The notes under the pieces were generated by a model. The model had not been told where the DNA came from. It ran no database searches and saw only the letters and a program-made list of their open reading frames with translations. From NCBI GenBank assembly GCA_043228905.1, contig JBHGNT010000013.1, positions 14,198,001 to 14,262,000 on the forward strand: a stretch of DNA of 64,000 bases, read 5' to 3'. The stretch is from Azolla caroliniana (taxonomy: Eukaryota; Plantae; Polypodiophyta). The stretch's first letter is position 1, and each line of letters opens with the position of its first letter. The position numbers were made by a program, and so were the translations under genes. Positions 10,443 to 60,210 of the stretch are shown here, piece after piece.

Positions 10443-11809
10443 AATGCTCAAGGAAGAGGAAAGATCAAGGCCGCAAGCCGACGCTGAGGAGATGGATTTG
10501 CCCCACGAGTTGGAAGAAGATCAATATGACGGTACCACGGGAGAGGATGCGGAACATAATGCCCTCTTGGATTGCGGAGATAGAACGACCGAGGACAAGG
10601 CCGAGATACCGATCGCAGAATCGGAACGTTGGGACCGGCGGTTTCGGGCAGGTTAGCCTGAAACTCCGGACATTGAAAAAACAAGCCCAGGTGGGGCTTT
10701 TGCAATCGGGAAGAAGACGACCATCGACCACGAGGGGCCGGTGGCTACAGACAAGGACGTAAATAGGACGGACAATTCTTTGTGTCTTCCCACACTTGCT
10801 CCCAAGATGATGGCAGTCGGGCCTGAGTGCCCACGTGAGTCCCAAGAGGAGGAAGGCGGTGGCGTGAGACCGAGAATTGCCGACGAGATGATGCGAGGAA
10901 GGAGCAGACAAAAGCCCTCAGAACCGATTCCGGAGAACTCGGCATTCGGGCCTTCATGCCCACGTGAGACCAAGGAGATGGATGACGGTATCGATGAGTC
11001 CTGGCACGATGCCAGCGAAGATGGATGGGAAATGGCCCACGAGAAGGTCGACGAAGGAACCAAGAAACGACCCGACCGGGGACCAAACCGCGCGGCACTC
11101 CGACTCGGGTGGAGCGCGATCCGGTCGTGGATTATTAGACCGGGGCCAGAATCGACATGAAGGTGCCGATACAGAAGAGGGTGCGGAATGAGCCACCCTC
11201 TTTTACATGGGGAGAAAGACCGACCGAGCGAAGGTCGGGAATTGAAAGGAAGGTGATCAAGGGTTCAGAACGAGTCCGACAGGATCAACATCAGAGCCGA
11301 AACTCCTGACATTGGAGAATCAAGCAAACTCCTGACATTGGAGAATCAAGCCCATGCGGGGCTTGGTTGATCACAGAGCGGATGCTATCCACTGACACCA
11401 CTAAAAGGGTCGGTGGCCTGGGACGAGTCGCCAGAAGATGTTACAAAATCGGTTACCCCACATCTTGTCTGGAGACTTCGGAAGTTCGGCCGACGTGGCA
11501 ACGTGAGATCAAAAGAGATGGAAGATGGAGGCGGGAACGCAGCAAGGAGAGCGACGACGAGTCCGGGAGAAGTACAAGGGACGAAGTGGAGAGCGAAGAC
11601 CAGTCCTATGGGTCACCTCACATTGGATCTAGAGACTTCGGCGGTTGGCATTGGATCCGATGTAAGACCAAGATACTGACGGTGGCGGTAGGAGGACGGG
11701 ACCCGGCAATCCAGAGAATGACGAACGGACCCAGACGGGAACCGGGCGGGGCGGACTTCCGGATAACCGACCCGGAAGAGGGGAGAGAGCAGGCCTACGA
11801 AGAGGCCGG
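10443..11809 (+). mobile_element. Degenerate GC-rich internal sequence related to non-autonomous element G (continues at 20000-20255 and 20890-20990)
   Basis: Shares the motifs GGTACCACGGGAGAGG.TGCGGA, GAGCCACCCTC, CTAGAGACT(C/T)CGGC and GTGAGACC with 24900-26900. Contains a 26-bp tandem duplication at about 11300-11351. Confidence 0.6.
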
Positions 11810-12829
11810 TGTCGTGGCGTGGCTTGCCTAGAAGCGTAGCGTTGCGTAGACAAAAGATATTGTGAAAGTGAGGAAGGAATCACTGGGATTATGGACGGAA
11901 GAGACGAAAGAGTAGAGATAGAGTAAATAGAGATCAACAAGATATGATAAGATAGGATATTGAATGATATTTGAAGGAATAAAAGAGATTTATAATTATT
12001 TGATGAAAGAGTTACAAAAGTGGTTGTAAGCGTCGTTGATCCTTCGAACTTGGTCTCACAAGATAATCACTCTTCTCTTTCTTGATAGTAGGCCACAACA
12101 ATCTTCACTTCAATATTTTGATGAAGATAACGCTCGAACCGCCTCCCTCTTGTTGAGAGTTGACCACCACGATCGCCAAGCTAGAGCTCCACCTTTATGT
12201 TGAACTTCTTCCTTTCTTTCTCTATTTTATGGTATCTCTTATGTAATATATATTTGATTGATATCTCATACCTCTCCCCCTTTGATCTTCTCTTTCACCA
12301 TTTAAATAGGTGCCCCCATGCATATGATGCATTGGAGGGTACAAGTCATGCATGTAGTGCATGAAATGCATGTGATGCATGATAGGCATCTCGCTCATTT
12401 GAGCTTTCATGTATGAAAAAATATATGGCATAAGAATAAACATGAAAATATGAGGTTGTGGGTTTGAGTCTCTCAAATATTATTGAATACAACATGTAAC
12501 GTCGTTTTTATATCATGAAGCAAATCCTTTATTTTATATATATTATTAGTATAGAGTAAATGGTAAGATTTGAAAGCCATAGGGTGGGGTTATTGGTTCA
12601 AGTCCTCTCTTGTTCGTGTAATATAATATATTTATCTATATATATATATTATTTTTCTTTACATATATATAATATTATGATATGTGTTGTTAATATTATC
12701 TTTATATATAAAACATTATCAAATGTTATTTTAGTTACGTATTTATCTTATTGTAGACTTTTAATGTGAAGCTTTCATACTTCACGACATCCACCCCCTC
12801 TAGACCTACACATCCTCCGGCATGTGCCA

Positions 12830-14006
12830 CTATCTTTCATCTTCATGTTGATCTATTGGAGGAGGTTCAAGCTCAAACATTTTCTTAAATACTTTTGTCC
12901 TCTTTCCAGCTACCACGTTTAGGATTAGTGTTCCATCCAATTGACTAAGCTTATAAGTAAAGTTATCATATACTTTTCTTACTATATAAGGCCCAAACCA
13001 TCTTTCAGCAAACTTGCGGACGGTGCTATGTTGATTATCTAAACTGCTACCATACATGAGCACCCAATCTCCTTCTTCTATTTTCTTAGGTTGAATTCTA
13101 TGAGTTTTATCAAAACAAATTTTATTCTTCAGTCGAGCCTCCTTCAATCGTTGGGCTGCTATTTCTATATCTTCAGGTCGATGCTCTAATTGTTGAATTC
13201 GCAAAGCAAGTAATTCTTCTATGCTCACCTCTTCTCTCCATGGAATAGATATCCATGACATAATTGATTCATCCATTGGCATGATGGGCTTTTGGCCAAG
13301 TATCAATTTAGCTGGCATGTATCCTGTTACCGAACTATGAGTTGTTCAATCCGCCCATAGTGCATAAGGTAGCATGCGTGGCCAATCTCTTATTTTACCT
13401 TTACAACTTTTCATGATTGCCTTAACTATTGGGCTATGTCCTCTTTCAATCTTTCCATTGGCTTCTGGATTATACGCAGTTGTAAGTGATAATTTGACCC
13501 CTATTCGGCTGAAGAATTCTCAAGCTTCATCAGAGTCAAGTTCTCCTCTATCTGCAATTATTTTACCAACACATCCGTAACGACATATTACATCTTCTAA
13601 CAAAATTTACATACAACTCTAGTTGTTTTTTGTCGTAGTGGTCTTCCTTCTACTTGGTTTGTAAGGTCTTCTCTTGCTAGTACTAAATATCGCATTTGAC
13701 CTTCCCCAGGTGGCATTGTCACTAGATCGACCATGTCAAGAAATACACGCTCCCGATGAACAACGCTCGGCCACAACCGAGCTTAGAATCAAACATAGAA
13801 AACCGGGAATGAATGCACAACACAATGGAGAGAAGAGTACACAGGATGTTTACGTGGAAAACCCAAACACGGGAAAAACCACGGCAGTCTACTGACTGCA
13901 AACTATCACTATATCACAATGATTACAACAGTGAGCTCACGGAGGCAACGACCTCGTGCTCACGATCTTCGCCACAGGCGGTGGTTACAACAGAGGAAAC
14001 AACCTC

Positions 14007-14046
<40 letters not shown>

Positions 14047-17000
14047 CACAGTTACGCGCTCAAATCTTGCGCCAACAAGAATGAAAACCACTATCTAAGT
14101 TTGCCCTAAGTCATATTTATACTAATATGACTTTTCTGCTATTTACAAATATAGCCCCGATGGACTCTCAGAAAGCATATTTACGAATATGTCCCTTCAT
14201 CCGGTGAGCACTTCTCACCGGGCCTTCACCATCCGGCTCTAGCTAGGTACTCCTCATCTGGTTCTCACCGGGTCTTCCGTAGCTGGGTACTCCTCATCCG
14301 GTTTCGGCCTCGGCCGAGTTTCTCATCAGCACTGTTCTTCTCACTTCCCATCCGGAGGAACCTGTTTCCTAACAATTTGACCCCTATTCAGCTGAAGAAT
14401 TCTCTAGCTTCATCATAGTCAAGTTCTCCTCTATCTGCAATTATTTTACCAACACACCCGTAACAACATATTACATCTTCTAACAAAAATTTACATACAA
14501 CTCTCGTTGTTTTTTGTCGTAGTGGTCTTCCTTCTACTTGGTTTGTAAGGTCTTCTCTTGCTAGTACTAAATATCTCATTTGACCTTCCCCAAGTGGCAT
14601 TGTCACTAGATCGACCATCCATTTATAATGCATTGATGATGAATATGTTGGTTTTAGCTCATCTCGATACCGGATAGTTGAATACCTCTGGCATACCTCA
14701 CAGGTTTCCACAAATTTCGTTAAATCTTCATACATATGTGGCCACCAATACTTCTGCTTCGTTAATTCTGGGTTCATGGTTCTAATGTATGCAATCCACC
14801 GAAGCAGTGCAATATCCGGTGTGGTGCAACTTGCTATCATTCCGATGAGTGGCAAACAATTTGTTTCAACCACTACATCTGCTCCGATCAAGTAATCTCT
14901 ATCTCTTTTTAATGCAGTAAGCAAAACCCACAATTCTCGTTTAACTTGTGCATAATTTCTTTGTCTTTCATTTAATATCTTTGCTCCAAATCTGATAGCA
15001 TATCGATGTTGGTCTTCATCTTCTTGGTTGATAACCCAACCGATCCCGATTGGGCTAGTATCAACTGTTACTATAATTGGTCTTTCACCTTTGTAGTTTG
15101 GTTGACGCAGAACTGGTGCTTTCAATAATGCTTCTTTCAGTTGTTGAACAACTTGTGTATGTTCATCAGTCCAAATAAACTTCTTCCCTTTTCTTAAAAG
15201 TTGGTAGAGAGGATCTGAGACATGTGCAAAGTGTGGTAACCAAATATGATAAAACACACATGCACCCAAAAATCTTCTCACCTCTGTTACCGAGTCACAA
15301 ACTTCCTTCATATTTTGTATTGCGTTAATTTTGATCGATGAAGGCTTCCTCCCATACCACCCACACATATGACCAACTATTAGAACTTTGTTTTGCCCAA
15401 AGCTAGATTTTGTTCCTAATAGTGTCAAATGTACCTACTCAAGCTTATTTAAAATGCTTTCACAATCATTAATGTGATTCATCACAAACTTTCTGCAACC
15501 ATTTCCAACCATAGTCTCATCTTTCTCTCTTTCTAAGCATCCCTTAATAGGAATATCATCTAAAAATGGCATAGTTACCTTTGGGATGTATTCATGTAGA
15601 ACTTTGTTCATTGCATTCATCATATGAGCAACTGAATTCGTCGCACCTTGAGGTAGAGTGCACATTCGAACCAACCCAATTGGTGTTTTCATTGTTGTGA
15701 TATTGCGACTATCAATTGCTAGTTGAAATTGGTCGTATCTTGAATATAGGTCTCCCACAGAGTAAATCGCTCTTCCAGCAAACGCTTCCGCAAATTCATC
15801 AATGATTGGTCTGATTCCCACATTTAAGATTGTGACTTTGTTGACTGGTTGTAGATCTTGAATGAATCTTAGAGAACCATCATTCTTTGGAACTGTGAAC
15901 CATCTATTGGAGTATGGTGCATTTGAAGGCTCTAAAATCTTCATCTTGACTTTATCCTTCAACAGCTCCAACAATTGAGGTAATCAAGCTCTCGGTACTG
16001 CAATATGTTTAAAATTCCAAGGAATATGAGGGATAGTAAATATTACCATTGGCGTCACCACCTTTGGATCTACACAACCAATCTCCTTAGCTTTGAATGT
16101 GAACACTATCCCATGCCTAAAGATCATTTCTTTGAAAGTTGCAATCTCTGATTGGAGAAAAAATTCACCCCCTCCGATTCTCAAGTTATTTATTGTCTCC
16201 GAAGTGAAGTGATGTCCGATCTTCTCTATTGGTCGAAGCATAGGCTCGGTTGCTGCTGCCTCCATTTTCTCTTCACTACCAATAGGTAATTGTACTGCAA
16301 ACAGGTTTGACCGTTTTATCTATTGTTTTGTATTTTGTATTACATAAACTTTCTACTTCTTCATATTTACAATTATACCTATCAATCTCATAATACATAT
16401 CAATTGAGTTTACATGTATCTTTCTAACATTCTCATCATCTTCTTTCAAGTACATTTCTAACTCTTCTAAAGTATTTGCAAAAGAAATTTCTTCCATAAC
16501 ACTTTCAATCTTCTCTTCCATTTCAAGTACTCCATTATCCTTCAATGCCTGCTGAAACAGATTAACATTCTTTTTCAAGTTCCTCTTGCATTCATACATC
16601 CTAGTCACACATATAACACCACTTTCAGAAACATGAAATGACTTATTCATATGTTGTAATGCCCTATATGAGGGTCTTTTAATAATGGGACTATTGCAAC
16701 CCTCACTCGCAACAGTCCTAGTCAAAAACCTGATTATCAAAATCATCACAGTCTTTTGGTATTGAATGATCACGAAGCTCTTGCTTGTTCCTCTCATGAT
16801 TTGGGCGAACTGTCATAAATTGTACAGTTCGTCGTCCATCTTGGCTACGGATTTTCGCATAGGTAGAACCATTGTCGAGGACTTTGGTCTCCATCCGTAC
16901 CGCTGTAATGTATGGTTGCCCCAGGATTATTGGATAGGTAGATTCTTCCTGCACAAAGAAATGTTGATCTACCTCTATATCACCAATAATAACCTTTACA

Positions 17001-18889
17001 TTTGGGCATGCACCAAATAAATCTTCCGTGACTGATGTGGCAGCTTTTACTCGCCAACCATGTTGAGTATCAATTGGCCATCTACCTTTCCTGTAAAAAT
17101 CAGCACTCATTATATTTATTTCAGAACCATGATCAATAAGTGCCATCACGGGGTCTGGAACATTTCCAATCTTCACATGATGCTCAATAGTGGCTCTTGC
17201 CCAACATTTGCGAGAGTAATGGCTTCTTACATCTGTTGAATTTATCTTTGAGGTTGATGCATGTTGAGAGTCAACAACGATATTGTTTGACTCGTTGCTC
17301 ACCACTTCATATGCCACCTTCGGATTTGTCTCTTTAACCTACTCATTTACTTGCTTCTTTCTTTGCACAATATCTATTATTTCATCATGAAATTCCTTTT
17401 TTGCAATACCTAGCACTTCTCTTAGTGTAAATTCTACTCGATTGTCTAGTATTCTCGTTTCTAAAACTTTCTTTAAATCTGTATCTTTTTCAATATTAGA
17501 CATTAATTTGAATGAAGGACCAGATTTACCTTTTTCGACCTTTGCGTCCATCTCTTTTCTTTTGCTTTCTCTTGTCTCATGCTTTTTTGTTGAGCCAATC
17601 TCATCATCCGGCCTTTTCCTTTTTTCTTCAACTATCACCTCATGCTCTTGGTGTTCTTCCATCTGAGCATAGACCGTCATAGCATCTACTGGAACATCCC
17701 ATCCAATGTTTTTACTTACAGAATCTCCGGCAACACGAAGGTCTTCCATCTTCATCTTTTGCTTTTGTGCGGTACTTACACCTTCTCCCGGAATGATGAT
17801 CGGGATGGCATGTCATCGAGGCGCATTCCTGCCGTTGCTGAGTAGTACATTGAGGAAGCCTTCTTTGCTTTAGCTTCTTCAAATTTAACCTTAACACCAC
17901 CATCACCAAAGTTCTTTGTACCGACTTCTAGTTTCAGTTAAATAAATGTTACCATTTTTCCAATACACCAAGTCTCGATTTTCCATGTCTTTATATTCCG
18001 CACAATCACGTAATCGATGTTCGAGACTATCACACCACATGCATCGAGGTCAAAATGGTTCCCTTGACCTCGAAGTCTGACCATTCTCAAGCTTTGCCAC
18101 TTTAATTGTTAGATCTTTCATACTTTGAACTAAATCATCAAGCAAAGACTCACTCTTAGTTTCGATCATTTCTTGTGGTTGATGGACCATTTCGTGTGAT
18201 GGTTCTCAACCAAGTCGTTGAACTTCGATGTTTTGCTCAAGCCGATTTGTGATTCCCACATGTGGTATTTGTAGCATTGCACCATTCCTTTGCATTCTTT
18301 TCATAAATTTATTACAAGCATTTGTTATCTCATTCCAATCTGCAGTTATACCATCCTCCGTATTTGGTACTTCAAGCATGAATTCCAATTCTTTTCTATA
18401 TCTCTTGTCAACTGCCTGCAAAAATAAAGCAACCTTTTGCCAAGACAAAGAATTTCTTTCCTCTGGCTTTAAGTGTCCATACAATCTATCAAACTCTTTT
18501 TTCGTGTCAGCCACAGATAATCCTTTATTTTCTTTTAGGACCCATTCATGGAATGAACACATAGTAACGCGAGAGAAATCCTCACGAGCATATTCAGACA
18601 CAAGTGCTTCTTTGAATGCATTCCAATCCAAACCATGCAATATTTGTATTTCACGAATTCTATCTCTTAATTCCATTTCCACTAATTTATAAAAGTTTGC
18701 TATCATATTGACATCATTCACAGCAAACATTTCCATTTCATCATAATATATATTGACATACTTTGAGATATTTGTGCCATCAAACACACCAATTTTCTCT
18801 CGGACTTCTCGTAAGGCATGAAATAATTGATCTTGATTCAATTTTTCAATAAACAACCTTACCGGATCCATTGTACTCGTACTTGTCAT
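12830..18889 (-). pseudogene. gag-PR / RT-RH-INT of element H, fragmented
   Basis: ORF pieces: gag 18206-18889; CCHC knuckle at about 18000-18045; PR ALIDHGSEIN in 16718-17317; RT YSNRWF...MPFLDDIPIKG in 15435-15974; RH/INT 14388-15428; INT C-terminus RWFGPY in 12830-13318. Confidence 0.88.
13734..14374 (-). mobile_element. Copia-like solo LTR inside the integrase of element H
   Basis: TG...CA ends (TGTCAAG...CCTAACA), the motif TTTACGTGGAAAACCC...GGGAAAAACCACGG common in plant Copia LTRs, a (CT)n tract at about 14011-14043, and no internal domain. Confidence 0.65.
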
Positions 18890-20255
18890 GCTGATGTTGA
18901 TCTTTGCTTTAGATGTCTCTTCTACTTCCCCGTTTCACGTCGAGTTCACCAAATTGTGTCGTGGCGTGGCTTGCCTGGAAGCGTAGCGTTGCGTAGACAA
19001 AAGATATCGTGAAAGCGAGGAAGGAATCACTGGGATTATGGACGGAAGAGACGAAAGAGTAGAGATAGAGTAAATAGAGATCAACAAGATATGACAAGAT
19101 AGGATATTGAATGATATTTGAAGGAATAAAAGAGATTTATAATTATTTGATGAAAGAGTTACAAAAGTGGTTGTAAGCGTCGTTGATCCTTCGAACTTGG
19201 TCTCACAAGATAATCACTCTTCTCTTTCTTGATAGTAGGCCACAACAATCTTCACTTCAATATTTTGATGAAGATAAGGCTCAAACCGCCTCCCTCTTGT
19301 TGAGAGTTAACTACCACGATCGCCAAGCTAGAGCTCCACCTTTATGTTGAACTTCTTCCTTTCTTTCTCTATTTTATGGTATCTCTTATGTAATATATAT
19401 TTGATTGATATCTCATACCTCTCCCCCTTTGATATTCTCTTTCACCATTTAAATAGGTGCCCCCATGCATATGATGCATTGGAGGGTACAAGTCATGCAT
19501 GTAGTGCATGAAATGCATGTGATGCATGATAGGCATCTCGCTCATTTGAGCTTTCATGTATGAAAAAATATATGGCATAAGAATAAACATGAAAATAAAG
19601 TTTTAAAAATAAAGGACCTAGCCTAATGGTAGGTGTGTTGACTTTGGTATATGAGGTTGTGGGTTTGAGTCTCTCAAATATTGTTGAATACCACATGTAA
19701 CATCGTTTTTATATCATGAAGCAAATCCTTTATTTTATATATATATTTAGTATAGAGTAAATGGTAAGATTTGAAAAGTCATAGGATGGGGTTATTGGTT
19801 CAAGTCCTCTCTTGTTCGTGTAATATAATATATTTATCTATATATATGTATATATATATATTATTTTTCTTTACATATATATAATATTATGATGTGTTGT
19901 TAATATTATCTTTATATATAAAACATTATCAAATGTTATTTTAGTTACGTATTTATCTTATTTGTGACTTTTAATGTGAAGCTTTCGTACTTCACGACAT
20001 TGGGAGCACGATACGTCAGTACCACGGGAGAGGGTGTGGAGCGAGCCACCCTCTCGACTTGCGGGCAAAGATGACTCGGGATAAGGATCGGAGATACGAC
20101 GAGCCCGAGGAGGATCCTTCACACCAGTTCTAGAGACTCCGGCGGTCGGCCCAAGAGTCGGCGTGAGACCTAGAGTAAGGAACGGTGGCGGCGAGGGGAC
20201 GAAGGCAAAGGGCTACTGAAGGGGCGGTCTACGGAGATCCTCACACCGATCCGGC

Positions 20256-20741
20256 AGTCGTGAAGATTTCCGGCTATAGTGTGAAACCGGGGTGGAATGG
20301 GCAAGTCGGTGGTGTGCAACATGTGCACATTTATTGTAGGAAAACGGTGTATAGAATAAGGGGGAGTATTTATCCCACATTGTAATGTCCCTCCCTCCTT
20401 GGGCTATAAAAGGAAGGGAGGGGTCTCTTGTGAAGGGGTTGCCCATTTTGAGTCGTAAGGGATACCATTTTGTCGAGGGTCATTTTGTTTTCTAGGGTGA
20501 GTAACTTCCTGTTGTTCTTCTCCTCTTGAGAAGTTGGGCGCCGCAGCCATGGTGAGAAAGCTCTATTAGGGTTAACTTCTTCTGAGTGTAGCCTGGCTCG
20601 AAGCCGGGGTTGTATCTTCTCACTTGTAATGTATATACTCATATCTGTTTGTGCATATTGGTGTATTTGGTGGTGTCGGGAGCATAGCCCCTTGTTTCCT
20701 GTGTATAAGAGTCGGTGTCGCGCACATGCTCTCTCTCTCTT

Positions 20742-20773
<32 letters not shown>

Positions 20774-20889
20774 ATGTTCGGTTGCCTCCGGGATGTGTCC
20801 AGAGTTGGTTTTCTCGACATCCCTTCCTCCCTCGTCCGAGACCCCCGTGGTCCCGCCCCTTCTATAGGCATGCACGTAATAACACGACA
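20256..20889 (+). mobile_element. Gypsy solo LTR related to the G family
   Basis: Starts AGTCGTGAAGATTTC (T>A) and ends TAATAACACGACA. Shares CTATAAAAGGA, GGGTTGCC.ATTTTGAGT and AGACCCCCGTGGTCCCGCCC with the G LTRs. No PBS follows; right flank ACGG. Confidence 0.75.
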
Positions 20890-33683: not shown

Positions 33684-34448
33684 AGGCTGGACCGGTTTTC
33701 TCCGTCCCAACACAATTTGGCGCATGCCGGTGGATGCGCGGTTAGGTGGGGGCGGATGTCGTGAAGAAAACCGTCCACAAGCGGAATCGGTGTACCAGAG
33801 CGTAGGAACTGACTCTTCATGCACGTGCGCCTTATGTTGTACATAGGAGATCCTAGGTAGATTCGGTAGGTAGGAAGTAAAGGGGAAACGATTCCTTCCT
33901 AGCCTATAAAAGGAGGGAGACGAGGAGGGGCGAGGGATCGCGGAGAGTCGAGGACGAAGTGCTGTCGGTTTGCGTGCGAAGGCTTCTCTCTCTCTCTCTT
34001 TCTGGTTGCAAACGCCATAGCTTCCTTCTGTGCAGGTTTCGGGAGGCCCGCGCTGCTATGAGGAATGCCCGAGTGCTTCCGGCAACACCTCCAACCTACT
34101 CATTCCCCTCTGTGCGTTTACGAACAGGTATCGGCATCTGTTCGCCGGCCTGTTCGGTTGTAACCGACTTCGTGTTATGTTGTCTTCGTGTTCTTGTTGT
34201 TTGTCTTGTCAATACATACATACTTTCGTGTCTTTCTGTGTCGCTGTCCCACTCGCGTCTTTGCGTCGAAGGGCCGTGTCCCTGTGAATCTACGCTCGCA
34301 CGTAGTGGGTCTCTCTCTCTCTCTCTTACTCTTCGGTACAGGACCCCCGAGGTCCCGCCTCACTCCACGCATCCGCGAGGAATACCTCGACAGCGCATTC
34401 GGAGGGCAACGTTGACATACGGGGAAAGCCTACGGAAGGCAAGCGTGG

Positions 34449-48700: not shown

Positions 48701-49262
48701 ACCCGCCCCCACCGATCTTCAGCTCGCGGAGCGTCTCGTTGGTGAAGGTGTGTCCTATGCAGGCCCGATCTCGTAAGCTGGGGTCCGATGCAACCCCTTT
48801 AATCCGGGATTCACTGTCCTCCGGTAAGGGCGCCGCAACTGGCCTCACCTTCCGGTCCACCGTCTTGTACTTGGTGCTCACTCGGGCCGTCCGTTCCGAC
48901 TCGAGCCCTCGACCGAAGTTCGCGATGACTTCGTACATTTCTTCGGAACATACCGGTATCGTCCGGTCTTCGTTAAGGTCTTCTTCGACTACCTTCCCCA
49001 GCATTCCCAAGGTGTCGTCGAAGGAGACCGCCTCCACGGCTCCGTTGATTCCTTCGTCAGGGCCGAGAACTCCGCACGCCCGAAGTCTCCCCTCCGTCTT
49101 TGTTTTCTCTCGGCCGGTGATGCCGACCATCGTACATGCTCCGCTGTCGGAGAAGCAAATTTTCCTACCTATTGTACACGGTTTTATCGTACAGATGTGG
49201 GGTTTTTCCGGAGCATCCGGACTGTCGCGGCCCCACGCCTTGGCAGTCCTCTCTAAAAATCC
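45774..49262 (-). CDS. pol (RT-RNase H-integrase) of element C, intact; open from the slippery site
   Basis: The 1118-aa ORF 45774-49130 extends upstream without a stop to GGA TTT TTA GAG at 49262 (GFLERTAKAWGRDSP...). Motifs FLDD, RH, HHCC, DDE and GPY; no chromodomain. Confidence 0.9.
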   Translation of the reverse strand, partial: GFLERTAKAWGRDSPDAPEKPHICTIKPCTIGRKICFSDSGACTMVGITGREKTKTEGRLRACGVLGPDEGINGAVEAVSFDDTLGMLGKVVEEDLNEDRTIPVCSEEMYEVIANFGRGLESERTARVSTKYKTVDRKVRPVAAPLPEDSESRIKGVASDPSLRDRACIGHTFTNETLRELKIGGGGFLLPAEEDRFRRMLGRHGKAFAFSPEEIGCVDPTIVEPMVIFTVPHVPWNLKPISVPRAHIPKLMELLKQKVDMGILEPSSAPYSNRWFTVPKKNGSLRFIQDLQPVNRVTIRNAGIGPTIDEFAEAFAGRSIYSVGDLYSGYDQFQLAVESRDITTMRTPLGLVRMCTLPQGGTNSVAHMVNAMNKVLRDCIPDITMPFLDDIPIKGCPVEEKDETIGPDGCRRFVVTHIDDCEKVLQRLEDARLTFSGEKSAFGQSEIMVVGHLCGSYGRKPSPAKVEAISAMKPDCSSVTEVRRFLGACAFYHIWIPHYAHVAEPLYGLLKKGRRFEWLDKHTESVRKLKEALSAAPALRKAVYRKGTPVYITVDTRPTGIGWVVNQEDEDGNRFPVRFGAKVLSERQRGYAQVKRELWGIVSAVKADKDYLIGTEVIIETDCMPILGMISGCATPDLAMLRWIAYIKSLDPEIRHISGKDNAMADMLSRARFDDEGGMVSEDEDVGVDFFETAYVTTDGTSTPALNDFDASKYDGEWLQIGGFLKTMTPDASWTKDEADRIRKRAYRFFLRDGCLWKHPKKKNGVPLRVVAMKEEREELLTAYHDSPWAGHRGTWATFEKLKGKYWWPGQYQDVHRFLTTCESCQMHSLVRHRDELHPTYPPAIHFKWMVDLVTMPMGVGQMRYLVLAREDLTNQVEGRALPNKTTAAVCRFLIEDVICRYGCVGKIVADRGELDAEEATELFDRLGVKLALTTAYNPEANGKVERGHGPIVKALVRACRGRIGNWPWLLPYALWADRTTHSSVTGYMPTELMFGQKPIMPMERTISSWATVDWRDEMSREELLAARIRQLERRPEDVELATEKLRVARKKNKARFDRTHRLRPKKIEEGDWVLVYDSSLDNQHRATRKFARRWFGPYVVRSANDNGTYHLAELDGTRVAIPIAGKRIKAFKKRHDDEPDPALLVGSDERSENEEEPTGEE

Positions 49263-51344
49263 TCTCGGGTTTCGGAACCGAGGGAATCGCGGTTACGTTC
49301 GTGGTTCAGCCGTACCGTCAGAAACTGGACCGAGTGGCGCCCGTCTTGGCTTTTGACCCTCGCGTAGGCCGAACCATTGTCCAGCACTTTGGTCTCCATT
49401 CGCGCCGCCGTGATGTACGGCTCTCCCAGAATGACCAGATGCGAAGACGTCTCCTGCACGAAGAAGTGCTGGTCAATCTCGACGTCGCCGATCTTGACTC
49501 GCACATTCGGACAGGCCCCGTGCAGTTCCTCGGTGGCGCGCGTTGCTGCCCTTATTTTCCACCCGTGCTTGGTGTTGATCGGCCATTTGCCCTTCTTATA
49601 GAAGTCCATGGACATCAAATTGATCTCCGATCCGTGGTCCACCAAAGCTATCACCGGTTCCCGGACATCGCCGATCTTCACCGGGGTCTCCGTGGTCGCT
49701 CGGGCCCAGTGTGGTCTCGAATAGTGGCTTTCCGCCCACTCGTCTCCCAGCGCCATGTCGTCTAGGTGCGTCGTCCGCACTTCCACCGGTCTTTCCGGTT
49801 CTGTCTCCGTCGACAGCCTCTTCCGTTGCACCAAGTCCCAGCACCTCTCGTAACGACAGCTCCACCTTGCTGTCGAGGATCCGTTCCTCCAGGACCTTCC
49901 GTAAGTCCGTGGTCCTTTCTATCTCCGTCCCCAGACGGTACCCGCCCTTCTGGGGTTTATCTTGCGTGCCGGCCCCGCCGGCTTCGTCCCGTCGTGGCCC
50001 GGACCGGGTCTCGTATCGTTGTGAGGGCCCGGTCGTCCCGGGTTTCCCCACCCGCTTCTCTTCTACCAGAGCCTCGTAGTTCTGGCAAGCGGCTTCCACG
50101 AAGCCCGTCCGTTCCTCGACCGGGTCGCTCCACCCGGTCATCTCCCGTACCCGTTTCTCCGCACTGTCCGATTCCTCCCCTCTAAGCCTTGCACCGGCAA
50201 GGCCTTCCAGCATCGTCGGCCAGAATCCGGCTTTGCTTTCCCTTCGGGCCTCGCCGCCCCCAACTCGAATGCCGGCCGACGCCGAGTAGTGGACGGTTTC
50301 CGCGTGTCGGGCCGCCGCCTCTTCCATCAACCTTTTCATACCACCTTTTCCGTCGTTTCGGCTCAGGGCCCTTCGGGTGTCGCTGACATGCACCCGTCCT
50401 TCCCACAGGTACACCACCCTGTCCCTCAGCGCCTCCGCGAAGTCGCCGCAGTCCTTCCGAATGTGGCCGACTTCATCGCACCACATGCACCTGTTTCCTG
50501 CCGCCGGCCGTCGGTCACGAGCCGGTTCGCCTCCTTCCCTTCGGGCCTGCGCGATTTGGAGGTCCTTTATCGCCTTCGTCAATTCCTCCAGCGCCGCTCC
50601 TCCGGTTGAGCCTCTGACTACGCCGGTCGAAGCCGAACCAGTTTCCAACCACTCCCGGGTCTCTTCCTTGCGCACCTGTGGCGCTGGTTCGAGCTTCCTT
50701 GCTGCGACCGAGCCCGACCCGGTCGCCCCGTTATCCGCCCATTCTCGCCGTTTGTCGAAACGGCCACAGACCTTCCTGACAGCCGCCCAGTCGGTAGTGA
50801 GCCCGTCTTCGGTTTCCAGCAAGAGTCCCACTTGCTCCCGATCCCGCTCGTCGACCGACTTGACAAACAGCAAGACCCGGCTCGTGTCCAGGATGGTTCG
50901 GTCGAGCGCCGAAAGGCGCGCAAAGTTTTCCTCGAACTCCCGGAGGAGCGCCGCCGCGTTTCTTCCCTTCCCCGGGGACTCCACCCATTCCATGAACCTT
51001 CGCTTCGAAAGCCGGAGCGCGTCGTCCAGCCCGTATTTCTCTAGGAGCCGACCTTCGAACTCCTCCCAGGTACGGCTCTCCGTCCGCACCTCGAGCACCT
51101 CCGCATGGATGCTCGGCATCGCCACTCGGGGAAATCCGGCAAGATGCCTTTCCTCCGGAATGTCCCGCATCAGCATCTCTGCACCGTAGGACGCCAAATA
51201 CTTCGTGGCATCCTTCCCATCGAACCGGCCGATCGTGCCGACGACCGCCTCAATAGCTCTGTCGAGGGCACCGGTGCTCTCGCGCGCGTTTACAATCCGA
51301 TCCACGGCCGAAGCCATGGCCTCTGCGAGATCCGACCCCCTCAT
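49253..51344 (-). pseudogene. gag-PR of element C with a frameshifting deletion of about 34 bp
   Basis: The segment encoding IAKKEFHDSIVD (present in F, E and B) is missing at about 49835, splitting ORFs 49596-51371 and 49253-49834. Confidence 0.85.
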
Positions 51345-52990
51345 CTTCTGCTCTTCTGCCGCCTCCTTCACGTCGGGTTCACCAAAGATGTCGTGATATT
51401 AAGCAAGTGCGTGTGGAATCGAGGCGGGACCGCGGGGGTCTCGAACCAAAGAGCAAGCGAGGGAGGAGAAAGAGAGAGAACCGGCTACGCAGGACCGGGG
51501 ATACACAGGGACACGGCCCTTCAGCACGGAGAACGCGGACAGAGACCGACACAGACAGATGTGAATGACTTAATATGTATATTAAGAAAATGGCTAATCA
51601 CGACTACAACCCTCGACGGGGCACAGGTTGGTTACAACCGAACAGGCCGGCGAACAGATGCCGATGCCTGTTCACTTCGACGCACAAAGGGGCTGCCGGA
51701 AGCACTCGGGCGTTCCTCGAAACAGCGCGAGCCTCCTCGGAACCCTGCACAGAAAGCTATGGAGCTCCAGAAGGAAGGAAACAGAGAGAGAGAAGCGTCC
51801 AGAAACGGTCCGACAGCACTTCGTCCTCTCCGTCCCCGATCCCCCTGCAACAGCTCTTTCCCGCTCCTTATATAGGCCGACGAGCAGGCCGTCCTGTCAG
51901 CTTTATTCCCTGTCCCTTTTGGACAGGGATCCGCTCCGTTTTCCACGCATCCGCGTAGTTACGCCGCCGACTCGTACAGTTCGCGCGCGCGACCGAAGAG
52001 ACTGTTCGCGCGGTCTTTGTCTCCACTTGAGTTAGGGCCCGTTCCTGCCGATTATCCTCCCGATTCGCTTCTATGTACAACTTGGAGTGTGCGCGCGTGA
52101 AGAACCGGTTCCCACGCCTTGGTGCGCCGATTCCGCCTATGGACGGTTTTCTTCACGACAACGTACAGTTGAGAAGGGAGGAACCGGACCGTGCCAAAAG
52201 ACGGGTCCAGGAGGTCACCGGGTGGAGCGATCCGGTCGAAGAAAAGACCGGCTTTGTGGAAGCCGCATGCCAGAACTACAAGGTTCTGGTAGAAGACAAG
52301 TGTGCGGGAAAGGCCAGAGGGGTCGGATCTTCGCAACGGTACGAGACCCGATTCGGGCTGAAGTTGAATGATGCCGGTGCTGCCGGTACACCGGATAAAG
52401 CAAAGAAAGCCGTCTACCGATTGAGCACGGAGATAGAAAGAACGACGGACCTACGGAAGGTCCTTGAGGAACGAATCCTCGACAGCAAGGTAGAGCTGTC
52501 GCTGAGGGAAGTACTCGGGATCGCCAAGAAAGAATTCCATGACTCTATCGTGGACTTGGTGAAGCGGAAAAGACTTTCGACAGAGTCGGAGCCGGAGAGG
52601 CCGGTGGAGGTGCAAACGACGCACCTAGAAGACATGGCCCTGGAAGATGAGTTGGCGGAAAGCCACTATTCAAAGCTGCACTGGGCAAGAGCCACTACGG
52701 AGACCCCGGTTAGGATCGGGGATGTCCAAGAGCCGGTGGTAGCACTAGTAGACCACAGCTTGGAAATCAACCTGATGTCTATGGACTTCTACAAGAAAGG
52801 CCAAGGGACGATCAACACCAAGCACGAGTGGAAAATACGAGCGGTGACGCGCGCCACAGAGGAGCTACATGGGGCTTGCCCGAATGTGCGTGTGAAAATC
52901 GGTGATGTCGAGATTGACCAGCACTTCTTCGTGGAGGAGACATCCTCGCATTTGGTGATACTCGGAGAATCGTACATTACAGAAGCACGT

Positions 52991-53666
52991 TGTCGTGAAG
53001 ATTTTCGTCCATAGGCGGAAAACCGAGCGAAGTAAGCAAACCCGCGATGTGCAACGTTGCACATCAAGATGTTGTATTTCTATTTGTCGATAGTGATAAG
53101 TGTGGTGCTAGAAATGCACCTTAGGATTTGTAAAGTGTAAAGGTGATGTGCTTTTTCGCGCACATCCACGTGAGAGAGAGAGATAGGTACATAGTAGTTC
53201 GTGTAGAGGTGGGAGTTAAGACCCATCCTTCCCTCCTCCCCTAAAATCAAGGGAAATATCCCCATTGATTGAAAGGGGATATTTTGTAGCACCCTTTTTG
53301 AAAACGGTCTTCTCTCCTTGTGCTATAAAAGGAGAGGAAGAGCACCATTGTGGGGGTTGCCTATTTTGAGTGCGAAAGGTATACCACATAGGACGAGCGT
53401 TAGGTTTAGGGTTTCTTTTCTTCTTCGTCGGATTAGGGTTTCGGGTTTATCATAGTCGTTTGGTGCGGCCTACGCGGCCGCCATTTTGTAATCGGTTTTC
53501 GGTTCTAATATATCTTGTTGAGCATTTGGCCTCCATCTTCCTCTTGTTCATTCTTTCTCTTCTTGTGCTAAGCTCCATTCCGAAGTCCTATTCCTTCTCC
53601 CCTTCTCCTTAGTCCAAGACCCCCGTGGTTCCGCCCTTCTCCACGCACGCGCGTAACAACGCGACA
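52991..53666 (+). mobile_element. Gypsy solo LTR (G-related) in the protease region of B
   Basis: TGTCGTGAAGATTTTCGTCC...AACGCGACA with perfect 4-bp TSD ACGT (52987-52990 / 53667-53670). Removing it restores ITEAR-METKVL. Confidence 0.92.
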
Positions 53667-54308
53667 ACGTATGGAGACGAAAGTGCTGGATAACGGTTCG
53701 GCATACGCACGCGTGAAGAGCCAAGATGGATGACACTCGGTCCAATTCTTGACCGTGCGACCGAACCATGAGCGCAATTGCGAGACCCTCGACGGCGAAA
53801 GCAGAGGGGATTTTTAGAGAGGGCTATCAAGGCGTGGGGCCGCGATAGTCTGGACACCTTGGAGGATACCCAAACATGTACAATAGGTCGGAAGTTTTGG
53901 TTCTCCGATACCGGAGGTTGTACGATAGTCGACATCATTGGCCAGGAGAAGAAGCGGGCAGAGGAACGACTCAGGATACGTGGAGTCCTCACCCCCGATG
54001 AGGAAATTAGCGGCGCCGTGGAGGCGGTCTCTTTCGACGACGCCCTTGGGAAAATTGGGAAGGTGATCGATGAAGGCCTGAGTGAAGACCAGATGATTCC
54101 GGTTAACTCGGTGGGAATGTATGAAGTCATTTCCGACTTCGGGGAAAGGGTCAGGTCAGATCGGACGGCCTGCGTGGATACAAGGCACAAGGATGTGGAT
54201 CGGAAGGTGAGGCTAGTTGCGACACCCTTGTTGGAGGGCAGCGAGGAACGAATAAAAGGGGTCGTGTGGGACCCAAGTTTGCGGAATCCGGCCGGCATAG
54301 GACATTGG

Positions 54309-57300
54309 TGTCGCGTTATTATGCGCGTTGTCAGGAAGATCCGTCACTACGCGCAGATCGTGAGGCGGAACCGCCGGGGTTCTGGACCAGAAGGATTTAG
54401 AGTCGATACAAGCTTTGGCGAGAAAGTACTTAAGATAGATTGGGAAAGAGAGAAGTTGAGATTACACGATTGATTTGATAACGAATTTGTTCCTCTTAAT
54501 TTTCATAAAAAAAACCGTGTTTTTTCTCCTCCCCCTTCCCTCTTTTATAGATGCTCTCATGCATATGATGCATGTGAGGGTACAAGACATGCATAAATTG
54601 CATGTTTGCCATTTGGCGCTTATGTATTACATGTGGTGCATGATAACCATGTCACTTATTTTAGTTCTCATGTATGAGAATTTACATGTAAAAGTACAAT
54701 GATAGAAATATAATTTTCACTAAATAGCATGGCTTAATGGTAAGCCAATTGACTCCTCACTTGGAGGTGCAAGGTTCGAATCCTTACTTGCCCTCCTTGT
54801 ATATGTAAATATGTATATATATATATATATTTATCTAGTCGCCGGATGTCGTCGGTTACCGGTGCCGCCGGATCACCGGCTCCATCGCCGGTCCGGTTTT
54901 GGTTGGCCAAAACCCTTTACGAGTAGCTAGCCCACCTCCACTCTTAGTTCAAGTTACCTTGAACTCTCTATGCTCCACACATAGACACAAAGATAATATC
55001 TTTTGCTCCACCTTATATATGATGAGAGCTGTATTTGTCGTGCCTATGTGGGATATCTCACAATTTTCTCCTTTCCTTTTACAAACTTTATACCCTCATA
55101 TCTTGACATTTAGTTGTCCGTTTCTCGTGTAATAAAGTGCATTCGAAACCTCCATCATTTTGTACTTAGATATTAAATCTATTTAAAATGTTATCTTCAC
55201 AATTATTGTACTACGTGATTCATACTCGATTTCGTACGTTTTATAGGATTTTCACACTATTGCCGAAAATCTTCACGACATCCACCCCCACCAAACCGCA
55301 CGTCCTCCGGTACGTGCCAAGAAGAGAAGAAGTGAGATTTCGGCTACGATGATCAATTAGATTCCTCCATGTCTTCATTTTCATCCGGCCTATTATGTTC
55401 ATCGTCGAGGTAATCGAGGTCAGGATCCTTGTCTTGTCTTTTCTTGAAAATCTTTACTCTTTTTCCCGCAATGGGTACGGCCAACCTTGATCCGTCTAGT
55501 TCCGCAAGTTGGTATGTGGCATTATCGTTGGCACTTGTCACCACATACGGCCCAAACCATCTTCTTGCGAACTTCCTTGTTGTACTGTGTTGATTGTCAA
55601 GGGTGCTGTCGTAAACCAAAACCCAATCCCCTTCTTCAATCTTCTTGGGATGAAGTCGATGCGTGTTGTCGAACCGAACTTTGTTCTTTACTCGGGCTGC
55701 CTTCATCATCTTTCGCGCTTTTTCTAAATCTTCAGGTCTTCTTTCAAGTTGCCTTATCCGCGCCGCTAATAACTCTTCTCGGCTCATCTCGTTCTCCCAC
55801 GGTATCGCTACCCATGAGGCGATCGTCCTTTCGATGGGCATAATCGGCTTTTGTCCATACATAAGCTCCGTCGGCATATACCCTGTCACCGAGCTATGTG
55901 TCGTTCTATCGGCCCACAAGGCATAGGGTAATAGTCGTGGCCAATTCCCGACTCAACCGTTGCATGCCCGTACGATGGCTTTAACGATAGGTCCATGCCC
56001 TCGCTCGATCTTCCCATTTGCTTCCGGATTGTAGGCAGTCGTGAGGGAGAGCTTCACGCCTAGTCTTTCGAAGAGCTCCGTCGCTTCGTGCGCATCCAAC
56101 TCCCCTCGGTCGGCCACTATCTTCCCTACACATCCATATCGGCAAACAACATCTTCAAGTAAAAATTTACAAACGGCTGAAGTCGTCTTATTTGTCAAGG
56201 CTCGTCCTTCCACTTGATTTGTCAAGTCTTCCCTTGCCAGCGCTAAGTACTTCATTTGTCCCACTCCCATTGGCATCGAGACCAGATCCACCATCCATTT
56301 GAAGTGAATGGTGAGTGGGTATGTCGGCTTTAACTCATCACGATGATGTATATTTGAATATATTTGGCAAGTTTCACATGTGGACACGAAATGGAGTACA
56401 TCTTTGTACATGCTTGGCCACCAGTACTTCTCCTTCAATTTTTCGAACGTCGCCCATGTTCCTCTATGACCTGCCCTAGCACTCTCGTGGAATTCGGTCA
56501 TCAGCGTCTCTTGCTCTTCTTTCTTTACCACCACTCGACGTGGTATTCCTGTCCTTCTTTTTGGATGTCGCCAAAGGAATCCTCCCTTCAAGAAGTATCG
56601 GTAAGCTTTCTTTCGGATTCGTAGGGCCTCCTCCTTTGTCAACGAAGCATCTGTAGTCAATGTTCTTAGGAATCTACCGATGAGTAACCATTCTCCTTTG
56701 TACTCGTTCTCGTTGAAGGCGTGGAGGGTTTGCGTGTCCTGGTCTTCCGCCGACAATCGAGCCATCTTGAAGAAGTTGAGGGCGACATCTTCATCTTCCG
56801 AAACCATGTTACTTCCATTTGAAAATCTTGCCCTCGACAGCATGTCAGCCATGGCGTTCTTCTTCCCTGCGATGTGACGGATCTCTGGGTTTAAAGACTT
56901 GATGTAGGCGATCCACCTTAGCATAGCAAGATCTGGGGTCGCACATCCCGAGACCATTCCGAGAATTGGGAGACAATCTGTCTCTATTATCACTTTTGAC
57001 CCGATCAGGTAATCTTTGTCCGTCTTCACTGCCGACACAATACCCCAAAGTTCCTGCTTGACTTGGGCATATCTTTGTTGCCGTTCGCTGAGAACCTTTG
57101 CTCCGAACTGGACGACATATCGCGCATTATCTTCACCTTCTTGATTGATGACCCACCTGATTCCGGTTGGGCTCGTATCTACGGTCACGTAAATTGGTTT
57201 CCCTTCGGCATAGTCGGCCTTCCTTAGTGCCGGAGCTTCAAGAAGCAGTTTCTTTAATCTTCGCATCACCTCTGTGTGCTCGTCTCGCCATTCAAACTTT

Positions 57301-60210
57301 ATTCTTTTCTTTAGTAGTCCATATAACGGTTCGGCGACATGAGCGTAGTGAGGAATCCATATATGATAAAACGCGCACGCTCCAAGGAACCTTCGAACCT
57401 CTGTTTGGTTTTCGCATTCTTCTTTCATGTCTTGGATTGCGTTCACTTTGGATGGCGAGGGCTTCCGGCCGTATGCTCCACACAAGTGACCTACCACCAA
57501 GATCTCCGGTTGCCCGAATGCGGATTTTTCTCCCGAAAATGTCAAATTCGCATCTTCGAGCCTTTGAAGCACCTTCTCGCAATCTTTCATATGATCTGCA
57601 ACGAACTTTCTACAACCTTCCTTATCTTTCGATTCATCTTTCTCCTCATCCGAACATCCTTTTATCGGAATATCATCCAAGAATGGCATCGTGATGTCCG
57701 GAATGCAATCCTTCAAGACTTTATTCATGGCATTCACCATATGAGCCACCGAGTTCGTTGCGCCTTGGGGTAAGGTACACATCCGCACAAGCCGGATCGG
57801 AGTCCTCATGGTTGTAATGTCCTGACTGTCGATCGCCAATTGGAATTGGTCATATCCGGAGTAGAGATCGCCAATGGAGTAGATGGACCGGCCCGCAAAC
57901 GCTTCGGCAAATTCGTCCACGCTCGGACCGATTCCGGCATTTCGAATTGTCACCTTGTTGACGGGTTGAAGATCTTGGATGAATCGCAATGATCCATTCT
58001 TCTTCGGCACCGTGAACCACCTATTGGAATAAGGAGCATTTGACGGTTCTAGAATTCCCATACTCACCTTCTCCTTTAAGAGCTCGATCAGCTTCGGAAG
58101 GTGTGCTCTCGGAACCGGTATCGGTTTCAAATTCCAAGGCACATGAGGCACCGTGAAGATCACCATTGGCTCTATAACTTTTGGGTCGGCGCATCCGATT
58201 TCTCGTGGGAAGAATGCGAAAGCCTTCCCATGTCTCTCAAGCATATCGCGAAACATTCGCTCCTCTTCAGGGAGAAGGAAATCCTCCTTTCCAACTCGTA
58301 GCTTCCCCTTTGTCTCTTTGGTGAAGTCATGACCTATCTTCTTCGGATCTCTTAAGCTTGGATTGTTAGCGACTTCCTTCATCTTTTGCCAGCTATCTTC
58401 CGGTAGCGGAACCGCAACTGGCTTGATCTTCTTATCCACCGTTTTATATTTCGTGTTGATGTCAGCTTCCTTCATCGAGATGCCACGACGGTATTCATCG
58501 ATGATAGCGTACATGTTGACGGAGTTAACCGAAATCACGCATTGGTTGTGAAGATAGCTCAAGTCCACGACGTCCTCGATTTCGCCGATGGTGTCGTTAA
58601 ATGAGGCTTCTTCCATAATATGAGTCACGAACTCCCCTTCTTCTATTATGTTCTCTTCTTTCAGCATCTTCTCGAATTCTTGTATCCGGTGCTTGTGCTT
58701 CTTGTCGGGTAGTACTAGTTTACATGCACCACTAGGTGTGACACATGTTGCTTCTCCTTGCAATCCACGCACTCTTCTTTCTTGTGGGGTCTTGTGATTG
58801 CTCGGACTATTTGTGCCCCATGCTTCAATAGTCCGCTCTAAAAATCCGAGGATTCGCCTCCGAGACTATCTCGATTCCTTTCATGATTGGCTCGCACTGT
58901 TAGGAATTGGACCGATCTTTGGTTGTCAAGACTCTTTATTCGTGCGAAGGCTGCTCCATTATCGAACACTTTGGTCTCCATCCGAGATGATGTGATATAA
59001 GGTTGCCCTAGGATGACAGGATGCGACGCTGATTCTTGTACGAAGAAGTGTTGATCCATCTCCACATCCCCGATCGTGACTTTGACATTGGGACAAGCTC
59101 CGTACAAGTCCTCCGTAGACTTTGTTGCCGCGCGGATCTTCCATCCGTGGTTTGTATTGATTGGCCATCTTCCCTTTTTGTAGACGTCGGTTGACATGAG
59201 GTTGATCTCCGAGTTGTGGTCGATCAAGGCTACGACGGTCTCTTTCTTCTCCCCGATCTTCACCGGCGTCTCCGTTGTCGCTCGTGCCCAATGAGGTCGA
59301 GTGTAGTGGCTGTCCACCATATCTTCATCGATTTCGTCTCTTGCCATCGTTATGGCATTCGTTTTTGCTTTCTGCAGCTTCTCTTCTTCCTCGTCCGATT
59401 GTTGTCTCTTTCTCTTTACAAGGTCCACGATCGTGTCATGGAACTCCTTCTTCGTAATGCCAAGCAATTCCCTCAAGGACAAAGTTACGTGGCTATCAAG
59501 AACTCGTTCTTCGAGAATCTTCTTTAGGTCCGTCGTCTGCTCTATGTCCGACCTTAGCTTATAGGTAGGTATCGTCCTTGTCCTCCGAGCGGGGTCTTCG
59601 ACACCAACCTTCACGGGCCGAACTGTTTCTTCAACTCGTATGCTCGGCTCTCCTTTTCGGCTCGATTCTCGTTCCACCATTTGTAAAGGTCGACTCGTCT
59701 CCGCATCGTCCTTCTTTTTCGCGTTCCTTGTTTCATGTCTTTTTGATGGCCCTTGCTCTTCTATTCTCTTTCTCTTTTCTTCAACGAACACCTCGTGGTT
59801 GTCACACATCACCTCTGCGAGTATGGTGTTGTCGTCCATCGGATCCGACCACCCTGTTATGCTTTGCACGTTTCGGTCCGCAAGCTCTACCTCGTTCGAT
59901 GTGACTTTTCCCTTCTTCTCATATTCGAGAACGGAAGTTCAAAACTTTGCTCCCGCTCTAGTAGCTTCAGTCTTGTCTTTCCCGACTCTTATTCCGGCCG
60001 ACGCAGCATAGTGCATCGCATCCACATGAGTCGCATCGACATCCTCCAAAGATTTCTTCATTCCTCCTCTTCCGAAATTCACCCGTAGGGGTCTTCTAGT
60101 CTCGCTTGAGCAGATCATGTTGTCCTCTATGTATACGATATTTTGTCGAATCGCCTCTCGAAGGCTCGCACAATCCCTTCTCATGTGGTCCATGCTATCG
60201 CACCACACGC
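54309..60210 (-). mobile_element. Ty3/Gypsy-type element D (3' LTR to mid-gag; interrupted by E, 5' end not in window)
   Basis: 3' LTR 54309-55280; PPT next to 55281; INT C-terminus 55353-55919; pol 55953-58847; gag-PR 58838-60210. Confidence 0.9.
55353..58847 (-). pseudogene. pol of element D (939-aa ORF plus INT C-terminus separated by a lesion near 55950)
   Basis: YSNRWFTVPKKNG, MPFLDDIPIKG, TVDTSPTG, HRGT...CETCQ, ADRGE, RRWFGPY. Confidence 0.88.

What the first reader, a model, noticed from the sequence alone, without database searches (positions are those of the whole stretch)
11806..60210. Gypsy-type lineage integrating at CpG with 4-bp target duplications (NCGN)
Seen: where both ends are visible the duplication is 4 bp, not the 5 bp usual for plant LTR elements, and CG sits at positions 2-3. 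The cases are ACGT/ACGT (C), ACGT/ACGT (solo LTR 52991), GCGG/GCGG (G), ACGC/GCGC (F) and CCGG/TTGG (H). Single visible flanks are ACGC (E) and ACGG (solo 20256). The remaining three flanks, CTAG (A), TCAC (B) and TTGG (D), derive from NCGN by C>T/G>A changes alone; homologous uninterrupted sites read CCGG (A) and CCGC (B). All families end TGTCG...CGACA. The nested Copia has a normal 5-bp TSD, an internal control. Inference: the integrase, which lacks a chromodomain, prefers CpG (possibly methyl-CpG). That would steer insertions into CpG-rich sister elements and tRNA repeats and explain the self-nesting.
Basis: partly seen in the sequence, partly recalled or inferred. Interest (0 to 1): 0.8.

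Follow-up and report, generated by a model that had tools for sequence, protein, structure and literature searches.

The report
Fern retrotransposons that insert at CpG
A stack of nested jumping genes in what is likely a fern genome inserts almost only at four-base sites with CG in the middle, a real habit but one already published for the moss 'Phygy' lineage, to which these elements most likely belong; whether the enzyme senses methylation is untested.

Summary
Three insertions have perfect 4-bp duplications (ACGT, ACGT, GCGG), and 8 of 11 Gypsy junctions have a central CG on a visible flank. In 73 related loci from elsewhere, 20 of 24 LTR flanks are NCGN (background 0.037); in the 21 scored by position, CG never sits at positions 1-2 or 3-4. 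One correction: element D ends at 54329 with flank ACGC; the TTGG at 54309 belongs to an eleventh insertion. It is not new in kind: Neumann et al. 2019 list Phygy with a 4-bp NCGN TSD (100% of 186 elements), tRNA-Trp PBS and no extra domain. These elements fit, though no Phygy reference sequence was available for a tree. The host is probably a fern; named relatives are from liverworts and a fern, so the lineage is not moss-specific. Best mechanism: 4-bp-stagger integrase kinking a central YR step, narrowed to CG by base read-out (inferred). Methyl-CpG sensing has no support; CpG steering explains only part of the nesting. This scan noted NCGN targeting before in a fungal genome (e1-10582392).

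The parts
44931..52160 (-). Element C, youngest full-length Gypsy (7,230 bp; LTRs 44931-45702 and 51389-52160), TSD ACGT/ACGT, inserted in B
   Evidence: LTRs 769/772 identical; RT-RH-INT in one open frame 45774-49292
45777..46970 (-). Integrase of C: H2C2 zinc finger, DDE core (D88, D147, E182 of the 398-aa piece), GPY/F-SH3 C-terminal domain, short acidic tail, no chromodomain
52991..53666 (+). Solo LTR, TSD ACGT/ACGT, inserted in B pol
23672..40933 (+). Element G, non-autonomous (about 4.9 kb without nested inserts), TSD GCGG/GCGG, inserted in the 5' LTR of A
   Evidence: LTRs 646/655 identical; empty site in B's LTR; size
27442..34392 (+). Element F (6,951 bp), flanks ACGC/GCGC, inserted in G
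   Evidence: LTRs 627/636 identical
11810..19999 (-). Element H (8,190 bp, AT-rich family), flanks CCGG/TTGG; TSD ambiguous
20256..20889 (+). Solo LTR, left end damaged, right flank ACGG
23089..43162 (+). Element A, 5' part; left flank CTAG in a tRNA-derived repeat; interrupted by G and cut by B
43163..54308 (+). Element B, 5' part; left flank TCAC (empty site CCGC); hosts C, solo 52991 and the insertion at 54309
54309..54328 (-).
54329..60210 (-). Element D, 3' LTR 54329-55280 plus pol and part of gag; true flank ACGC
60211..64000 (-). Element E (F family), 3' LTR 60211-60849, flank ACGC on + strand, inserted in D; runs off the window
34449..39835 (-). Ty1/copia element with 5-bp TSD CGTGG/CGTGG (internal control)

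Best explanation
These are non-chromovirus Ty3/gypsy retrotransposons, most likely fern members of the Phygy lineage, that leave 4-bp duplications centred on CG, likely because their integrase cuts with a 4-bp stagger and reads the CG pair itself. Shown: the 4-bp NCGN sites, the domain order, the lack of a chromodomain. Inferred from retroviral intasomes with a 4-bp stagger: the target is kinked at the central dinucleotide, which favours pyrimidine-purine steps and disfavours T at position 1 and A at position 4. Inferred here: base-specific contacts narrow that to CG, since TG, CA and TA steps are far commoner in the flanks but almost unused. Non-NCGN flanks are mostly later C>T/G>A decay of methylated DNA. 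Methylation of the target at the time of insertion is not needed for this explanation.
For: Neumann 2019: Phygy is the one plant lineage with an NCGN preference; 4 bp in 100% of 186 elements, tRNA-Trp PBS 81%, no extra domain, no eORF. Window: 3 perfect 4-bp TSDs, 8 of 11 junctions CG-centred. External loci: 20 of 24 flanks NCGN against CG frequency 0.037, p = 3e-25; 20 of 22 YR-centred sites are CG although CG is 15% of YR steps, p = 6e-15; CG at positions 2-3 in 17 of 21 and at 1-2 or 3-4 in 0 of 21 from both LTR ends, as a 4-bp symmetric site predicts. Position 1 A12 C6 T2 G1, position 4 T10 C6 G4 A1, as reported for 4-bp-TSD retroviruses. Contigs of run X1 clipped at the LTR start: 16 with majority letters ACGT at low overall agreement 0.43, 4 more reading TC then GG; run X15: 2 with ACGG. 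Integrase nearest PFV and Ty3 integrases by sequence and fold, no reader domain. Transitions between twin LTRs: 14 of 362 CG sites, 4 of 183 CHG, 10 of 969 CHH.
Against: No Phygy reference sequence could be obtained, so tree membership is untested; no Physcomitrium-named protein was among the 240 listed hits. C (7,230) and F (6,951) are shorter than the published Phygy range 7,656-9,968. The tRNA-Trp identity of the PBS is recalled, not shown by a tool. H and solo 20256 do not give clean TSDs, and 2 of 24 external flanks (CCTT, TCCA) are not NCGN or its decay. No external locus gave a verified two-ended TSD; L038 and L065 have mismatched ends and may be chimeric contigs. The contact residues are not shown.
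Confidence: 0.8

Rival explanations
1. The integrase prefers methylated CpG, which would aim it at silenced repeats without a chromodomain and drive self-nesting.
For: The elements show CG-biased transitions, so their DNA is likely methylated; 8 of 11 window insertions lie in sister elements; Phygy is reported enriched at predicted centromeres of the liverwort Apopellia and nested into Tcn1 elements in Physcomitrella.
Against: No chromodomain or methyl-reader domain found. Only 6 of 24 external flanks are in sister sequence. ZAM-subgroup errantiviruses target CGCG in Drosophila, where CpG methylation is minimal (recalled), so CG targets need no methylation. Nothing here measures methylation at target sites.
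Confidence: 0.12
2. A sister lineage of Phygy (or a fungal Ylt1-like clade shared with plants) that kept or re-evolved the same target rule, not Phygy itself.
For: Host is probably a fern and named relatives are liverworts and a fern, whereas Phygy was defined from Physcomitrella alone; gag hits DUF4100; sizes of C and F fall below the range; an earlier scan note reports NCGN targeting in a fungal genome (unchecked).
Against: TSD length, NCGN motif, PBS type, lack of extra domains and compact layout all coincide with Phygy; Phygy is already annotated in a liverwort. No named fungal protein was among listed hits.
Confidence: 0.15
3. Central CG only reflects CpG-rich hosts or a generic liking for bendable YR steps.
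For: Sister elements have CG frequencies of 0.07-0.12; all 4-bp-TSD retroviruses favour central YR.
Against: p = 3e-15 even at background 0.122; 20 of 22 YR-centred sites are CG and none is TA; 8 CG-centred sites lie in flanks with CG frequency 0.021 or less.
Confidence: 0.02

Closest known systems
Phygy (non-chromovirus Ty3/gypsy, REXdb; Neumann et al. 2019, PMC6317226)
   Same: 4-bp TSD with NCGN, no chromodomain or aRH, no extra ORF in autonomous copies, compact 7-8 kb build, PBS that I recall as tRNA-Trp
   Different: Host is likely a fern, not Physcomitrella; C and F are 0.4-0.7 kb below the published size range; a non-autonomous derivative (G) is present; tree placement untested
TatI and Selgy (REXdb, same paper)
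   Same: 4-bp TSD; TatI also has a tRNA-Trp PBS
   Different: TatI carries an aRH domain (none found here); Selgy has a tRNA-Ala PBS and is about 5 kb; neither is listed with NCGN
Ginger1 DNA transposons (Bao et al. 2010, PMC2836005)
   Same: Gypsy-like integrase with GPY/F motif; 4-bp TSD CCGG or CCGT/ACGG
   Different: DNA transposons with TIRs, no RT or LTRs; stricter motif
ZAM-subgroup errantiviruses of Drosophila (review PMC5408687)
   Same: Ty3/gypsy integrase with a CG-centred palindromic target (CGCG)
   Different: Insect lineage, many with env; stricter motif
PFV and other 4-bp-TSD retroviral intasomes (Serrao et al. 2015, PMC4422553)
   Same: 4-bp stagger, central YR step, T and A disfavoured at TSD positions 1 and 4; best sequence and fold match of the integrase
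   Different: Only a modest YR enrichment (63% over background), not near-exclusive CG

Membership tests
Phygy | Ty3/gypsy domain order RT-RH-INT | tested here: met
   C: RVT_1 287-461, RT_RNaseH 527-656, Integrase_H2C2 783-837; same order in D and F
Phygy | 4-bp TSD | tested here: met
   3 perfect and 1 near-perfect of 6 two-ended cases; symmetric CG position in 21 external flanks
Phygy | NCGN target motif | tested here: met
   8 of 11 window junctions, 20 of 24 external flanks
Phygy | PBS complementary to tRNA-Trp | tested here: inconclusive
   One conserved PBS in 6 of 6 window 5' LTRs and at 27 junctions in the loci; its match to plant tRNA-Trp is recalled; searches found no tRNA to confirm it
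Phygy | No extra domain (chromodomain, aRH) | tested here: met
   No such Pfam hit; model ends in an SH3-like barrel and a low-confidence acidic tail; 2 of 97 homologues have a tail over 110 aa after the GPY/F motif, both low-complexity or read-through in look
Phygy | Polyprotein spans nearly the whole interior, no eORF | tested here: met
   C: gag frame opens at the PBS, pol stops 71 nt before the 3' LTR; G is a non-autonomous exception
Phygy | Size 7,656-9,968 bp | tested here: inconclusive
   H 8,190 inside; C 7,230 and F 6,951 just below
Phygy | Clusters with REXdb Phygy RT, RH and INT | not testable with these tools
   REXdb FASTA and per-element table too large to read; no Physcomitrium-named protein among listed hits
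TatI | aRH domain (100% of members) | tested here: not met
   No second RNase H hit in any pol piece
Selgy | tRNA-Ala PBS, about 5 kb | tested here: not met
   Autonomous copies 6.9-8.2 kb, above the 4.4-6.7 kb range; PBS recalled as Trp
Chromoviruses (Tcn1 and others) | C-terminal chromodomain, 5-bp TSD | tested here: not met
   TSD 4 bp

The most novel reading that the evidence does not exclude
Phygy is an old lineage spanning mosses, liverworts, ferns and perhaps fungi whose integrase reads methylated CpG directly in its target-capture site, with no reader domain, and so aims itself at silenced repeats; the lineage-wide Glu at the PFV Ala188/HIV Ser119 position (68 of 70 homologues) and the conserved basic strand before GPY/F are candidate determinants.
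Probability: 0.12. Interest if true: 0.72.

Novelty: new member of a known kind. Interest (0 to 1): 0.27.

Why it matters
It extends the only sequence-specific plant LTR lineage on record from one moss to (likely) ferns and liverworts, and element C offers an open, recently inserted pol for the first biochemical test of how a Ty3/gypsy integrase picks CpG. If methyl-CpG were read, it would be a chromodomain-free route to heterochromatin targeting. As it stands the target rule itself is published.

Tried and rejected
No whole genome was held, so no genome-wide TSD histogram. ESM Atlas gave no answer. Cluster look-up of 10 unnamed homologues gave no organism names; a second protein search with P0032 found no Physcomitrium name; the RT-RH tree (117 sequences, no reference lineages or outgroup) only shows C, D and F among relatives interleaved with Riccia elements and cannot place the lineage. 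PBS checks led nowhere: paper search with the motif returned unrelated papers; 31 viral loci held no tRNA. No RNA holder was listed; this says nothing on expression. The first read-laying run did not list the LTR-end flanks among its shown rows. Dropped before counting: L051:534 (repeat inside the LTR; it read TCGA), L053:2923 and L054:6230 (variant PPT junctions); L055:1533 (CCGA) was seen only by a loose regex in 8 loci and not counted. Ylt1 paper passages gave no target-site data. Literature searches for another report of NCGN in retrotransposons found only Neumann 2019; a search on methylated CpG and insertion preference (listing only) showed no paper on methyl-CpG targeting by an LTR integrase among the 15 listed of 38.
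Full report
What was checked. No genome was held, so I mapped the window by self-alignment, read every junction, and looked for empty homologous sites. The region is a stack of eleven Gypsy-type insertions and one Copia inside a tRNA-derived repeat array. Order of nesting: A in the repeat; G in A's LTR; F and the Copia in G; B in A; C, a solo LTR and a further element (only 20 bp visible at 54309) in B; D in that element's LTR; E in D; H and a solo LTR in a separate LTR element at 10381-21425.

Observation. Six insertions show both ends. C, solo 52991 and G have perfect 4-bp duplications (ACGT, ACGT, GCGG) that do not extend to five bases, and their empty homologous sites hold the 4-mer once. 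F matches 3 of 4. H (CCGG/TTGG) does not fit its homologues without a 2-nt indel, and solo 20256 has a damaged left end. The Copia has a 5-bp TSD. With this, 8 of 11 junctions show a central CG (p = 8e-8 at 0.07; 1e-3 at 0.244).

Independent test. A scan of metagenome contigs with C's pol kept 73 loci at 58-95% identity. I built terminus libraries from PBS and PPT junctions only, so flank letters played no part, and scanned for termini facing other DNA in two ways. The mismatch scan gave 23 hits, 2 dropped as internal, 17 of 21 NCGN, with CG at positions 1-2 or 3-4 in none. The BLAST scan gave 25, 3 dropped, 19 of 22 NCGN. The union is 20 of 24 NCGN, one TG, one CA and two others, against CG frequency 0.037 in 200-nt flanks; CG makes up 15% of YR steps there but 20 of 22 YR-centred sites. 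All flanks are distinct, but the loci are short-read contigs from what may be few related genomes, and none gave a verified two-ended TSD. Contigs of two public runs laid on C's LTR start agree: 16 contigs clip at the terminus with majority letters ACGT and overall agreement 0.43, 4 read TCGG, 2 in the other run ACGG; 22 further rows were not shown.

What the elements are. C has RT-RH-INT in one open frame and LTRs 769/772 identical. Its integrase ends in a GPY/F-SH3 domain and a short acidic tail, with no chromodomain or second RNase H; nearest solved relatives are PFV and Ty3 integrases. All six 5' LTRs carry one PBS, which I recall as matching plant tRNA-Trp; no call confirmed that. The host is probably a fern: most named hits of the PPR gene at 2-1759 are Adiantum or Ceratopteris, best identity 53%, with Ginkgo, Cryptomeria and Diphasiastrum also present, and PPR repeats make this a weak marker. 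Named relatives of pol are from Riccia (up to 64%), and, with relative P0032 as query, also Calypogeia and Adiantum nelumboides.

What is known. Neumann et al. 2019 (PMC6317226; passages and the whole lineage table, supplement file 3, read; per-element table and FASTA too large to see) state that Phygy elements have an insertion preference for NCGN and list 4-bp TSDs in 100% of 186 elements, tRNA-Trp PBS in 81%, size 7,656-9,968, no extra domain. Jedlicka et al. 2019 (PMC6911290, passages) report GC-rich centres in 4-bp TSDs and Phygy nesting in Tcn1. Phygy is annotated in the liverwort Apopellia (PMC12885004, passages). Ginger1 DNA transposons use CCGG or CCGT/ACGG (PMC2836005, passages), and ZAM-subgroup errantiviruses CGCG (PMC5408687, passages). 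PMC7466625, PMC5014426 and PMC2864245 (passages) added nothing on targets. The elements work like Phygy and meet every Phygy feature I could test outright; size and PBS are inconclusive and the tree test could not be run.

Mechanism. For retroviruses with 4-bp TSDs the target is bent at a central YR step, and T and A are disfavoured at the first and last TSD positions (PMC4422553, abstract and section 6). The external flanks show the same edge pattern (A12 C6 T2 G1; T10 C6 G4 A1). The near-exclusive use of CG needs more than flexibility, so base read-out is inferred. One candidate is the residue three after the second catalytic Asp, aligned to PFV Ala188 (numbering offset inferred): Glu in 68 and Asp in 2 of 70 sequences. 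From recall, that residue touches bases outside the central pair, so it is a weak lead. Transitions between twin LTRs are about 3.8 times commoner at CG than at CHH sites (14/362 against 10/969), which fits methylation after insertion and accounts for decayed flanks, but says nothing about the target's state at insertion.

Nesting. 8 of 11 window insertions lie in sisters, but this window is one cluster. Outside it, 6 of 24 flanks match sister sequence although the loci were chosen by pol, and 8 CG-centred insertions lie in DNA with CG frequency 0.021 or less. Sister interiors have 0.07-0.12 and the tRNA repeats 0.044-0.047. CpG density can give a two- to threefold pull, not the whole pattern.

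Earlier scan notes. One note (e1-10582392, unchecked AI note) reports NCGN 4-bp TSDs in a fungal genome and found no retrotransposon precedent; Neumann 2019 is such a precedent. I did not test whether those elements belong to this clade.

Verdict. Real, well supported, and already described in kind. What is added is a likely fern occurrence, a corrected map, outside counts and an open integrase frame for testing. Interest 0.27.

Noticed in passing
window 24327-24350, 28078-28100, 40978-41002, 43771-43795, 51365-51388, 18932-18956: The PBS starts 4-6 nt away from the LTR end in all six window elements and 1-8 nt away in the loci, rather than the 2 nt I recall as usual; the integrase may trim a longer overhang at this end.
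   Followed up: partly
window 54720-54795; similar in L037 near 1965: D's LTR holds a tRNA-like stretch (D-arm and T-arm look-alikes) that ARAGORN did not call; may be a captured tRNA or SINE piece.
   Followed up: no
window 3500-10380 and 21426-23088: Tandem array of degenerate tRNA-Ser-like units on the minus strand: 10 ARAGORN calls and 10 Rfam tRNA matches, with drifting anticodons.
   Followed up: partly
window 23672-40933: G is a non-autonomous element of about 4.9 kb with the lineage's LTRs, PBS and PPT, an interior of tandem repeats and a 538-codon stop-free frame with no Pfam hit; similar interior in L008.
   Followed up: partly
window 10381-21425: Older LTR element starting TGTTG with a GAGGGGGAG purine tract; its interior shares repeats with G's interior; hosts H and solo 20256. 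Right end and TSD not resolved.
   Followed up: partly
window 2-1762: 3' part of a PLS-type PPR gene, best named hits mostly from ferns.
   Followed up: yes
window 17342-17812, 29149-30036, 52031-53011, 58841-59938: The gag end of four elements hits Pfam DUF4100, a family I recall mainly from fungi; a possible link to fungal Gypsy clades.
   Followed up: no
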